Positions 13,157 through 44,666 of a DNA stretch of 64,000 nucleotides are shown here, piece after piece. How positions within the stretch are numbered: position 1 is the first letter of the stretch; each line of letters opens with the position of its first letter. Where the stretch lies: NCBI RefSeq assembly GCF_024700885.2, contig NZ_CP117016.1; one strand, 5' to 3'. The notes beneath the pieces were generated by a model. That model worked only from the letters and a program-made list of their open reading frames with translations, ran no database searches and had not been told where the DNA came from. The stretch is from Escherichia coli. GTDB lineage: Bacteria > Pseudomonadota > Gammaproteobacteria > Enterobacterales > Enterobacteriaceae. The translations under genes were made by a program, and so were the position numbers.

Positions 13157-13208
13157 TAGCATGCTTCCAGTTTTCTCAGTCAGAGACTGAGCGTTAATCG
13201 AAATTCGG

Positions 13209-22454: not shown

Positions 22455-22497
22455 TCTGCGTCGCATCAGGCAATAAGCGCCGGATGCGACATCAGGC
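22455..22497. repeat. REP / palindromic unit between yfbR and yfbS
   Basis: ctgcgtcgcatcaggc...gccggatgcgacatcaggc. Confidence 0.5.
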
Positions 22498-22502
22498 TCT
22501 TG

Positions 22503-43268: not shown

Positions 43269-43757
43269 TTACGCTCTGGGCAAGAAACTTGACGAGCTTT
43301 GCAGATAATCAAAAAACCATCTGATGATAAAACTGAACTGCGGGATCAGCTGTGATTTGCTCCAGTCTTCGCTTTTCGACACCCCGGTAAAGGAGTCGAG
43401 AAAGAAGAGAATGGCGGCAACAATCAACACACCGCGCAACGCACCGAAACAGACGCCCAGCACCCGATCGGTGCCTGACAACCCCGTTTTCTCCACCAAC
43501 TGGCCTATCACGAAGTTCACGATAGCACCAACGATCAGGGTAGCGATAAACAGTACCGCGATGGCAATCCCATTTCGAACCAGTTCGTCTTCAAAGCCCG
43601 TAAACCAGACTGACAGGTAAGTGTAGTAATGACTGGCAACAAAGAAAGCACAACCCCATGTCACCAGCGATAACGCTTCACGAACAAAGCCGCGGATCAG
43701 GCTAACCAGAGAGGAAAAAGCAATCACCGCGATTATGGCGTAATCAATCCAGACCAT
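43269..43757 (-). CDS. cvpA: Colicin V production membrane protein
   Basis: 162-aa membrane ORF. Confidence 0.94.
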   Translation of the reverse strand: MVWIDYAIIAVIAFSSLVSLIRGFVREALSLVTWGCAFFVASHYYTYLSVWFTGFEDELVRNGIAIAVLFIATLIVGAIVNFVIGQLVEKTGLSGTDRVLGVCFGALRGVLIVAAILFFLDSFTGVSKSEDWSKSQLIPQFSFIIRWFFDYLQSSSSFLPRA

Positions 43758-43815: not shown

Positions 43816-43831
43816 GAAAACGTTTGCGTAG
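43816..43831 (-). promoter_or_regulatory. PurR operator (PUR box) of the cvpA-purF-ubiX operon
   Basis: Minus strand reads ACGCAAACGTTTTCTT, matching the PurR box consensus; located 60-75 bp upstream of cvpA. Confidence 0.65.
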
Positions 43832-43920
43832 GGATTTCCTTCCCGCGCATCAATAAAAATGGCGCTGAAAAAATATTCAACGCCATCGACTTTTTATGCC
43901 TTTGCGGCATCGGACAATGC

Positions 43921-44008
43921 GTGTCGGATGCGGCGTAAACGCCTTATCCGACCTACGGCTCTACCCCTGCGCAGGCCTGATAAGACGCGCCAGCGTCGCA
44001 TCAGGCAA
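43921..44008. repeat. BIME with two REP palindromic units between cvpA and dedD
   Basis: gtgtcggatgcggcgtaaacgccttatccgacctac and gcctgataagacgcgccagcgtcgcatcaggc. Confidence 0.6.
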
Positions 44009-44015
44009 GACCGTA

Positions 44016-44666
44016 TTAATTCGGCGTATAGCCCATTACCACGCCACTTAAGCCAGAAAGTTGCTTCAACTCACCCAGCGAACCTTTCAGCTTATCTTTC
44101 GAGGCATCTGGCCCAACCAGAATACGGGTAATTTTGCCCTGCACTGGCGTGGATGGCGACGTATAAACCCGATAACCGGCACCGCGCAGCTTACCGACAA
44201 TCTCATTCACTTTATCGGCATTTTTCAGTGCGCCCAGTTGTACAACATAGGCTTTACCCGTTGGCGCTGCTTTTTCTTCCACGACCGGCTTCGGCGCAGG
44301 TGGTGCTTCAACCTTCGGTTTAGGCGACTCCACCGGTTTCGGCTTCGGTGGGGCGACCGGTGCAGGTTCCGGTTCAAACTCGGTGTTATTGGCTGCAATA
44401 GTGGCCGGATCGAGCGACGGTGCTGCGGCATCACCTGCCCGCACCTCTTCCGCTGCGCCTTCCGGCGGCTGCGTCGGCAACGCCTGGGTGGCGGCTGGCA
44501 TCATATCAGGCTCATCGCGATCGCCAGCTTTCGGCACCAGCGGGATAGCCGCGAACTCATCCTGATAATGTTTTTTCTGCCCGTCCAGCAGCCCTGGAAG
44601 TACAATCACCCCCAGCGCCACCAGCACGATCGTGCCCACTAACCGATTCTGAAACTTACTTGCCAC
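44016..44666 (-). CDS. dedD: Cell-division protein DedD (SPOR domain, Pro/Ala-rich linker)
   Basis: ORF 44016..44684; probable GTG start at 44666 (VASKFQNRL...); overlaps the folC stop. Confidence 0.88.
   Translation of the reverse strand: MASKFQNRLVGTIVLVALGVIVLPGLLDGQKKHYQDEFAAIPLVPKAGDRDEPDMMPAATQALPTQPPEGAAEEVRAGDAAAPSLDPATIAANNTEFEPEPAPVAPPKPKPVESPKPKVEAPPAPKPVVEEKAAPTGKAYVVQLGALKNADKVNEIVGKLRGAGYRVYTSPSTPVQGKITRILVGPDASKDKLKGSLGELKQLSGLSGVVMGYTPN

What the first reader, a model, noticed from the sequence alone, without database searches (positions are those of the whole stretch)
43921..44008. Multiple BIME/REP clusters, one identical in type to the IS target
REP units occur at about 6121, 22455, 43921, 53296, 56781 and 62099. 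The second unit of the cvpA-dedD BIME (43974..44008) is the same type as the unit split by the IS at 62187/63620. These are therefore additional potential targets if the IS is PU-specific.
Basis: partly seen in the sequence, partly recalled or inferred. Interest (0 to 1): 0.25.

Follow-up and report, generated by a model that had tools for sequence, protein, structure and literature searches.

The report
REP hairpins, known IS1397 landing sites
The flagged sequence is an ordinary pair of E. coli repetitive extragenic palindromes (a BIME) between dedD and cvpA, and the insertion sequence elsewhere in the window is IS1397, already known to jump specifically into the loops of such palindromes, so the idea is right but not new.

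Summary
The window is the E. coli strain 1190 chromosome. Positions 43921-44008 hold a y-type and a long Z-type (z2) palindromic unit, tail to tail, between dedD and cvpA. This is a normal BIME that K-12 also has.

Six intact units and one IS-split unit exist. The 22455 site is only two arm remnants, and 53296 is a remnant plus one intact hybrid unit.

The element at 62188-63619 is IS1397: 1432 bp, IS3 family, with a 4-bp duplication GTCA. It sits in the loop of a z2 unit that differs from the cvpA-dedD unit by one loop base.

Of 49 distinct IS1397 left junctions from genomes and metagenomes, 44 lie in a palindromic-unit loop: 29 y-type and 15 z2-type. Five lie elsewhere.

The prediction was confirmed directly. 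In strain JNE25-003, IS1397 sits in the identical z2 unit of the cvpA-dedD BIME. The mnmC-yfcL unit is occupied in five other genomes.

One correction: y units are targets as often as z2 units, so "same type" is not required.

All of this is published biology (Clément 1999; Wilde 2001, 2003). Interest is low.

The parts
43923..43956 (+). y-type palindromic unit (REP) of the cvpA-dedD BIME, with its CTAC tail. The outer arms carry the GTCGGAT/ATCCGAC variant.
   Evidence: Read. Motif hits. Palindrome scan. Hairpin -10.0 kcal/mol, z -3.5.
43957..43970 (.). Short tail-to-tail linker between the two units (ggctctacccct...).
   Evidence: Read. The same linker recurs in every repeat of the amplified array in JNE25-003.
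43971..44006 (-). Long Z-type (z2) palindromic unit: GCAG + GCCTGATAAGACGCGCCAGCGTCGCATCAGGC. Loop GCCA at 43989-43992. The stem starts 9 nt after the dedD stop codon (44016-44018).
   Evidence: Hairpin -12.9 kcal/mol, z -4.6. Length class z2. The identical unit is occupied by IS1397 in L012, L010 and L059.
43858..43887 (-). Terminator-like hairpin plus T-run downstream of dedD and the BIME, ahead of the cvpA promoter region.
   Evidence: It is a single consensus match, not above the shuffle expectation.
6122..6157 (+). Intact y-like unit with CTAC tail, in the nuoL-nuoM intergenic region.
22459..22498 (.). Two unit arm remnants, head to head (GCGTCGCATCAGGC ... GCCGGATGCGAC), between yfbS and yfbR. 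It has no unit loop.
   Evidence: The whole-unit scan does not find it.
53298..53370 (+). Composite downstream of fabB: a non-folding unit fragment (53298-53320), then an intact hybrid unit at 53325-53356 (y-like outer arms, z2-like upper stem) with a duplicated CTAC tail.
56781..56810 (+). Intact y-type unit between the convergent genes mnmC and yfcL. This locus is occupied by IS1397 in at least 5 other genomes.
   Evidence: Occupied copies H51, H52, H54-H56. Junctions in L013 and L014.
62100..62126 (+). y-type unit with a shortened loop, 15 nt after the smrB stop codon. It is the first unit of the smrB-yfcO BIME.
62127..62165 (.). Long A+T-rich linker of the smrB-yfcO BIME. It holds one 1-mismatch match to the IHF consensus at 62142-62154.
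   Evidence: Such matches are not rarer than chance in the window (64 seen, 49 expected).
62166..62187 (-). Left half of the z2 unit split by the IS (TAAG+GCCTGATAAGACGC), with the GTCA duplication at 62184-62187.
   Evidence: Empty-site reconstruction matches 395 of 395 bases in two genomes.
62188..63619 (+). IS1397: 1432 bp, TG...CA ends, and near-identical 16-nt terminal inverted repeats (15/16). orfA runs 62239-62760. orfB is in the -1 frame and ends at 63587.
   Evidence: PGAP label 'IS3-like element IS1397 family transposase' with programmed frameshift. ORFs. Pfam HTH_28 and rve on the products.
63620..63637 (-). Right half of the split z2 unit: the second GTCA copy (63620-63623), then GCGTCGCATCAGGC.

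Best explanation
Positions 43921-44008 are a standard E. coli BIME. One y-type and one long Z-type (z2) repetitive extragenic palindrome lie tail to tail across a short linker. They sit in the transcribed 3' region of dedD, upstream of the cvpA-purF promoter.

Like other REPs, the units are non-coding hairpin-forming repeats, present at about 600 copies per genome. By published work on the family (not tested here), they can protect upstream mRNA from 3' exonucleases, attenuate transcription, bind gyrase, Pol I or HU, and affect translation termination when they lie within 15 nt of a stop codon. This one lies 9 nt from the dedD stop.

The units are also the preferred landing pads of IS1397, the IS3-family element at 62188-63619. 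Its transposase integrates at the apex of the hairpin and duplicates the 3-4 loop bases. Every intact unit in the window is therefore a potential IS1397 site. The cvpA-dedD z2 unit and the mnmC-yfcL unit are seen occupied in other strains.

Shown here: the identity of the repeats and of the IS, the precise insertion and its duplication, the loop preference across 49 sites, and occupancy of the predicted site.

Inferred from the literature: that the transposase itself reads the target, and all RNA and DNA roles of the BIME.
For: - The window equals the strain 1190 chromosome, and the locus is dedD-cvpA intergenic.
- REP arm motifs are far above chance, and the units fold as hairpins.
- K-12 has the same BIME with 3 SNPs.
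- The only Rfam signal is a sub-threshold match to naRNA4, an RNA family I recall (from memory) as REP-derived.
- The IS is annotated IS1397 and matches at 100% identity in many genomes.
- Removing the IS and one GTCA copy gives a sequence found uninterrupted, 395 of 395 bases, in two genomes.
- All 10 distinct genomic contexts of the orfA protein are in unit loops.
- With the metagenome scan added, 44 of 49 distinct left junctions are in unit loops, in both orientations. Of these, 29 are y-type and 15 z2-type, and duplications are mostly 3-4 bp.
- IS1397 sits in the identical z2 unit of the cvpA-dedD BIME in JNE25-003, and in the mnmC-yfcL units in 5 genomes.
Against: - Five of 49 junctions are not in canonical units (L025, L049, L054, L056, L066), so the specificity is not absolute.
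- Only one genome of 5426 has the cvpA-dedD site occupied, and there the BIME is amplified to five pairs. This shows the single-pair form in this window is a possible target rather than a frequent one.
- The primary IS1397 papers could not be read. Only their titles and secondary statements support the mechanism.
- No functional data exist for this particular BIME.
Confidence: 0.95

Rival explanations
1. Only the Z-type unit matching the one split in this window is a target, and y-type units are not. This is the narrow reading of the finding.
For: The copy in the window and the copy in JNE25-003 are both in long-Z units of near-identical sequence.
Against: 29 of the 44 unit-borne junctions are in y-type units. 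These include the y unit homologous to window 56781-56810 (L013).
Confidence: 0.02
2. The IS landed in a palindromic unit by chance, and IS1397 has no real target preference.
For: A single copy in one window cannot show specificity. Five non-unit junctions exist.
Against: 44 of 49 distinct junctions lie within 2-6 nt of a unit arm. By my own rough estimate, unit loops make up about 0.1% of the genome. The literature also reports specificity.
Confidence: 0.01
3. IS1397 recognises hairpin geometry, a stem of a given height with a 3-4-nt apex, rather than the REP sequence. Units would then be hit because they are the most abundant such hairpins. Short z1 units would be avoided, and unrelated hairpins occasionally used.
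For: - Two exceptions with both flanks restore to strong non-REP hairpins, with the duplication at the apex (L054, L066).
- Insertion occurs in either orientation.
- No junction lies in the short z1 class, although z1 units occur in the sampled DNA.
- One published title reports unit-independent transposition in Yersinia pestis.
Against: - The arms next to 44 junctions are strongly conserved in sequence, so sequence and shape cannot be separated with these data.
- L025 and L056 show no evident hairpin on the one flank seen.
- The z1 sample is small and biased.
- A published title says IS1397 and ISKpn1 transposases discriminate between two unit types, which argues for sequence reading.
Confidence: 0.2
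4. The palindromes at 43921-44008 are simply the intrinsic terminator of dedD, not members of a repeat family.
For: They lie right after the dedD stop codon and form stable hairpins.
Against: - Neither hairpin is followed by a T-run. The terminator-like site is separate, at 43887-43858.
- Both units match the genome-wide y and z2 consensus over about 30 nt.
- The pair is tandemly amplified in another strain.
Confidence: 0.01

Closest known systems
BIME-2 (composite BIME of y and z2 palindromic units) of E. coli
   Same: The cvpA-dedD element has y and z2 units in alternating orientation with a short tail-to-tail linker. The locus is present in all strains checked but varies in copy number: one pair in K-12 and strain 1190, five pairs in JNE25-003. 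This matches the behaviour described for BIME-2.
   Different: This window holds only a single y-z2 pair. The z2 unit carries GCAG instead of the conserved GTAG. Both y arms carry the GTCGGAT variant.
BIME-1 (y - long linker L with IHF site - z1; also called RIP/RIB)
   Same: The smrB-yfcO element is a single y + Z pair separated by a 39-nt A+T-rich linker with an IHF-consensus-like match. It is present in some strains and absent in others, including K-12, as described for BIME-1.
   Different: Its Z unit has the long z2 length (32 nt stem to stem), not the 25-nt z1 form. By the published definitions it counts as an atypical BIME. The IHF match is no better than chance.
IS1397 (IS3 family), the REP/PU-specific insertion sequence of natural E. 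coli isolates
   Same: The 1432-bp element is annotated IS1397. It has orfA/orfB with a programmed -1 frameshift, a 3-4-bp duplication, and insertion in the loop of palindromic units.
   Different: Nothing of note. This copy is 100% identical to copies in many other genomes.
Other REP-targeting insertion sequences: ISKpn1 (IS3 family, Klebsiella), IS621 (IS110 family, E. coli), ISPpu9/ISPpu10 and ISPsy8 (Pseudomonas)
   Same: These are insertion sequences whose copies lie in repetitive extragenic palindromes.
   Different: They differ in host repeats, in some cases in transposase family, and in insertion position within the repeat. None was tested here.

Membership tests
REP / palindromic unit (PU) of E. 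coli | Match to the REP consensus (GCCGGATGCGGCGTGAACGCCTTATCCGGCCTAC for y; the GCCTGAT... arms for Z) | tested here: met
   Consensus quoted. Arm motifs give 8 matches against 0.69 expected, and 5 against 0.01 expected. Whole units are listed.
REP / palindromic unit (PU) of E. coli | Imperfect palindrome that can form a stem-loop with an internal mismatch | tested here: met
   -10.0 and -12.9 kcal/mol, z -3.5 and -4.6, each with the internal AA/GC-type bulge.
REP / palindromic unit (PU) of E. coli | Extragenic location | tested here: met
   All seven units lie between annotated genes.
REP / palindromic unit (PU) of E. coli | Conserved GTAG tetranucleotide 5' of the palindrome | tested here: inconclusive
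   The y unit has GTAG (CTAC on the + strand, 43953-43956). The z2 unit has GCAG in this strain and GTAG in K-12.
BIME-2 | Built from y and z2 units in alternating orientation with short linkers | tested here: met
   Unit lengths of 30 and 32 nt stem to stem fit y (35) and z2 (37) once GTAG is included. The linker is 14 nt.
BIME-2 | Multiple tandem copies (two to twelve units) and length polymorphism between strains | tested here: met
   This window has two units. JNE25-003 has ten units (five pairs) at the same locus.
BIME-2 | Gyrase binding and cleavage | not testable with these tools
   This is a biochemical property (Espeli and Boccard 1997, cited).
BIME-1 (for the smrB-yfcO element) | One y and one z1 unit | tested here: not met
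   The Z unit is the 32-nt z2-length form, not the 25-nt z1 form.
BIME-1 (for the smrB-yfcO element) | Long conserved linker L, often with an IHF site | tested here: inconclusive
   The linker is 39 nt with a 1-mismatch IHF consensus match at 62142-62154. Such matches occur at chance frequency. The L consensus was not available for comparison.
IS1397 (IS3 family) | Near-identity to the reference element and the IS3-family layout (orfA, orfB in the -1 frame, DDE/rve domain, TG...CA ends) | tested here: met
   Annotation and 100% identity to copies labelled IS1397. Programmed frameshift note. ORFs. Pfam HTH_28 and rve. Ends read. The ISfinder reference sequence itself was not compared.
IS1397 (IS3 family) | Insertion in the central loop of palindromic units, with a 3-4-bp duplication | tested here: met
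   Window copy: GTCA duplication, verified against an empty site. 44 of 49 other junctions are in unit loops.

The most novel reading that the evidence does not exclude
[quoted passage not shown] It uses y and long z2 units in either orientation, avoids the short z1 class (0 of 49 junctions), and occasionally takes unrelated hairpins of similar geometry, including ones inside rhs coding repeats. If so, the z1 class would be a protected subset of REPs. The recognised feature would be structural rather than the REP sequence. This may already be described in the primary IS1397 papers, which I could not read.
Probability: 0.25. Interest if true: 0.2.

Novelty: already known. Interest (0 to 1): 0.08.

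Why it matters
It matters little beyond annotation. REP/BIME elements and the preference of IS1397 for them have been known since the late 1990s.

The practical value is threefold:
- The intergenic palindromes here should be annotated as REPs, not as terminators or novel RNA motifs.
- The 1.4-kb element should be annotated as IS1397 with its 4-bp duplication.
- Strain-to-strain length differences at cvpA-dedD, mnmC-yfcL and smrB-yfcO are explained by BIME copy-number change, BIME presence or absence, and IS1397 insertion.

The junction census made here (49 sites; 29 y, 15 z2, 0 z1, 5 non-REP) is a small modern confirmation of the published specificity.

Tried and rejected
- **Primary IS1397 papers** (PMC94167, PMC169884, PMC95333, PMC135288): none is held. 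Only titles and secondary citations were usable.
- **K-12 RefSeq annotation:** it was fetched to see whether REPs are annotated at these loci, but the table lists no repeat features there. K-12 was used only for sequence comparison.
- **Rfam:** nothing reaches the gathering score at the finding. There are only sub-threshold naRNA4 matches. The whole window gives just the nuoG RNA.
- **IHF consensus scan of the long linker:** one match, but such matches occur at chance frequency, so it was not used as evidence.
- **Promoter scan of the cvpA-dedD spacer:** found nothing.
- **My first assignment of the Z units as z1**, made from memory and from the BIME-1-like layout at smrB, was rejected. One search gave the unit lengths (z1 29 nt, z2 37 nt), and both Z units are z2.
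- **Occupied copies of the nuoL-nuoM, yfbS-yfbR and fabB-yfcJ sites:** none was found among 5426 genomes. Ten records hit the piece limit, so this is not an absolute negative.
- **Enumerating all 7 IS1397 places in strain 1190:** not possible, because the search reports one place per record.

Full report
**Source and setting**

The window matches the chromosome of E. coli strain 1190 (NZ_CP023386.1, reverse complement) at 100% identity. The finding lies in the 258-bp spacer between dedD (44016-44666, - strand) and cvpA (43269-43757, - strand). It is therefore just downstream of dedD and upstream of the cvpA-purF-ubiX genes.

**What is at 43921-44008**

Reading the sequence and a whole-palindrome scan give three parts:
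- a y-type unit, GTCGGATGCGGCGTAAACGCCTTATCCGAC, followed by CTAC (43923-43956);
- a 14-nt linker;
- an inverted long-Z unit, GCAG-GCCTGATAAGACGCGCCAGCGTCGCATCAGGC (43971-44006).

The two units are tail to tail. Both fold into the expected bulged hairpins (-10.0 and -12.9 kcal/mol; z -3.5 and -4.6 against shuffles).

REP arm motifs are far above chance in the window. GCCKGATGCGRCG with at most 1 mismatch occurs 8 times against 0.69 expected. CTTATCMGRCCTAC occurs 5 times against 0.01 expected. The published y consensus is GCCGGATGCGGCGTGAACGCCTTATCCGGCCTAC.

The published unit lengths, including GTAG, are y 35, z1 29 and z2 37 nt (PMC8266576). The Z unit here is 32 nt stem to stem. It is therefore z2, not the 25-nt z1 form, which also occurs in the DNA I sampled.

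K-12 MG1655 has the same two units with three SNPs. One SNP turns K-12's GTAG into GCAG in this strain. Rfam gives only sub-threshold matches to naRNA4, which I recall (from memory) as a REP-derived RNA family.

A terminator-like hairpin with a T-run lies further downstream on the dedD strand (43887-43858). The units themselves have no T-run.

| Site | Location | Status |
|---|---|---|
| 6122-6153 | nuoL-nuoM | intact unit |
| 56781-56810 | between convergent mnmC and yfcL | intact unit |
| 62100-62126 | 15 nt after smrB | intact unit with a short loop |
| 53325-53356 | after fabB | intact hybrid unit, preceded by a fragment that does not fold |
| 22459-22498 | yfbS/yfbR | two unit arms head to head, no unit loop, so not a unit |

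My scans found no additional unit.

Seven units in 62.6 kb of chromosome is the ordinary density. K-12 has 584 REPs in 4.64 Mb, which predicts about 7.9.

**The insertion sequence**

The element is 62188-63619: 1432 bp with TG...CA ends. Its terminal repeats are TGAACTGCACCCCAAA and TGAACTGAACCCCAAA. It has an orfA and an orfB in the -1 frame.

RefSeq annotates the identical sequence in many genomes as 'IS3-like element IS1397 family transposase, programmed frameshift'. Its products carry HTH_28 and rve domains.

The element is flanked by GTCA on both sides. I removed the IS and one GTCA copy. The result is a 395-nt sequence that occurs uninterrupted, 395 of 395 bases, in two other E. coli genomes. 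The insertion is therefore precise, and the target was an intact unit, GCCTGATAAGACGCGTCAGCGTCGCATCAGGC.

This target differs from the cvpA-dedD z2 unit by one loop base, T versus C. 'Same type' is correct; 'identical' is not quite.

The host element is y + 39-nt A+T-rich linker + z2. That is a BIME-1-like layout, but with z2 instead of z1. By the published definitions it is an atypical BIME. It is absent from K-12. Twenty-five of 5426 complete genomes carry IS1397 at this site in this orientation.

**Is the IS specific for palindromic units?**

The literature says yes: Clément et al. 1999; Wilde et al. 2001, 2003. I could read only their titles and secondary statements (failed look-ups). I therefore tested it in two steps.

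1. A look-up of the exact orfA protein returned ten different genomic contexts. All ten left junctions and all nine visible right junctions lie in the loop of a unit.

2. An exact-match scan of metagenome contigs for the left 30 nt of the IS added 61 loci.

Pooled with the window and three further genomes, there are 49 distinct left junctions:
- 44 have a unit arm ending 2-6 nt (mostly 5) before the IS. Of these, 29 are y-type and 15 long-Z, in both orientations.
- Where both flanks are seen, the 3-4 loop bases are usually duplicated.
- 5 are not canonical units. Two lie in rhs-like coding repeats (L054, L056), one in another coding sequence (L025), one in the loop of an unrelated hairpin (L066) and one is unclear (L049).

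None of the 49 is in a short z1 unit. By my own rough estimate, unit loops make up about 0.1% of the genome, so the preference is very strong but not absolute.

**Direct test of the prediction**

I built one query from the unique left flanks of the five unoccupied REP sites plus both IS ends. I searched it against 5426 complete E. coli genomes. Only genomes with the IS next to a flank can join two parts of the query. Six genomes did.

- **cvpA-dedD.** In strain JNE25-003 the BIME is amplified to five y-z2 pairs. IS1397 sits in the third z2 unit...gcaggcctgataagacgcGCCA|IS|GCCAgcgtcgcatcaggc... This is the same unit sequence as window 43975-44006, with the loop GCCA duplicated. The same core is also hit at two unrelated loci (L010, L059).
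- **mnmC-yfcL.** Five genomes carry the IS here. In L013 it is in the y unit that corresponds to window 56781-56810. In L014, where that strain has a y + z2 pair, it is in the z2 unit.
- **nuoL-nuoM, yfbS-yfbR and fabB-yfcJ.** No occupied copy was seen.

**Interpretation**

Both describe textbook features of E. coli genomes.

The one substantive correction is that y units are hit at least as often as z2 units. The 'same type' argument is therefore unnecessary. Every intact unit in the window is a candidate site. The arm remnants at 22459-22498, which lack a loop, probably are not.

How the BIME acts on dedD or cvpA expression was not tested. From the literature, REPs stabilise upstream mRNA, attenuate transcription and bind gyrase or HU. 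REPs within 15 nt of a stop codon may affect translation termination. The z2 stem here begins 9 nt after the dedD stop codon.

**Verdict**

Interest is low. The only mildly open point is whether IS1397 avoids z1 units and reads hairpin shape rather than sequence. My sample hints at this but cannot settle it, and the unread primary papers may already answer it.

Noticed in passing
L003:2450-5252 and L004:2450-3455: Two IS1397 copies in one genome (GCA_900149875.1) each adjoin an IS110-family transposase gene (DEDD_Tnp_IS110). In L003 a 1374-bp insert containing that gene splits IS1397 at position 1115/1116. In L004 IS1397 similarity stops at about position 1006, the same gene family lies downstream, and no right end was seen in the locus.
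   Followed up: partly
L054:~1103 (- strand), L056, L066:1475, L025, L049: Five IS1397 junctions are not in canonical REPs. Two are inside rhs-like coding repeats and one is in another coding sequence. One is in the loop of an unrelated hairpin (agcccctccGGAGaggggct, duplication GAG). One is unclear. L054 and L066 restore to strong hairpins with the duplication at the apex.
   Followed up: partly
L026, L027, L074 (also L053, L063, L070): In several metagenome contigs the left and right flanks of IS1397 belong to different units. Three contigs share one right flank but have three different left flanks. This indicates either recombination between IS copies or assembly chimeras across the repeat.
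   Followed up: no
NZ_AP045053.1 (JNE25-003; L012) and NZ_AP046539.1 (SK0189): These strains show 39 and at least 40 matching places for the flank + IS-end query, against a median of 6. This suggests an expansion of IS1397 copies. JNE25-003 also has the cvpA-dedD BIME amplified from one to five y-z2 pairs.
   Followed up: partly
window 43818-43835: gaaaacgtttgcgt is a PurR-operator-like palindrome upstream of cvpA-purF. I recognised it from memory only.
   Followed up: no
window 13164-13206 (-): Rfam nuoG RNA cis-regulatory element (RF01748), 50.3 bits against a gathering score of 33. It is the only Rfam family above threshold in the window.
   Followed up: no
window 43971-43974: The tetranucleotide next to the z2 unit is GCAG in this strain and GTAG in K-12. 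Published work says the REP-associated transposase TnpA-REP needs GTAG for binding, so this unit may no longer be a substrate for it.
   Followed up: no
window 62085-62187 / 63624-63659 versus L015:21150-21235: K-12 has a different smrB 3' end and a 70-bp smrB-yfcO spacer without any BIME. The downstream gene also differs: a StfH/YfcO-family adhesin at about 86% identity in many strains. The whole junction is a polymorphic spot.
   Followed up: partly
E. coli genome collection: 3485 of 5426 complete genomes have some match to IS1397, but only 1707 have a place covering at least 80% of it. Many genomes therefore carry only fragments.
   Followed up: no
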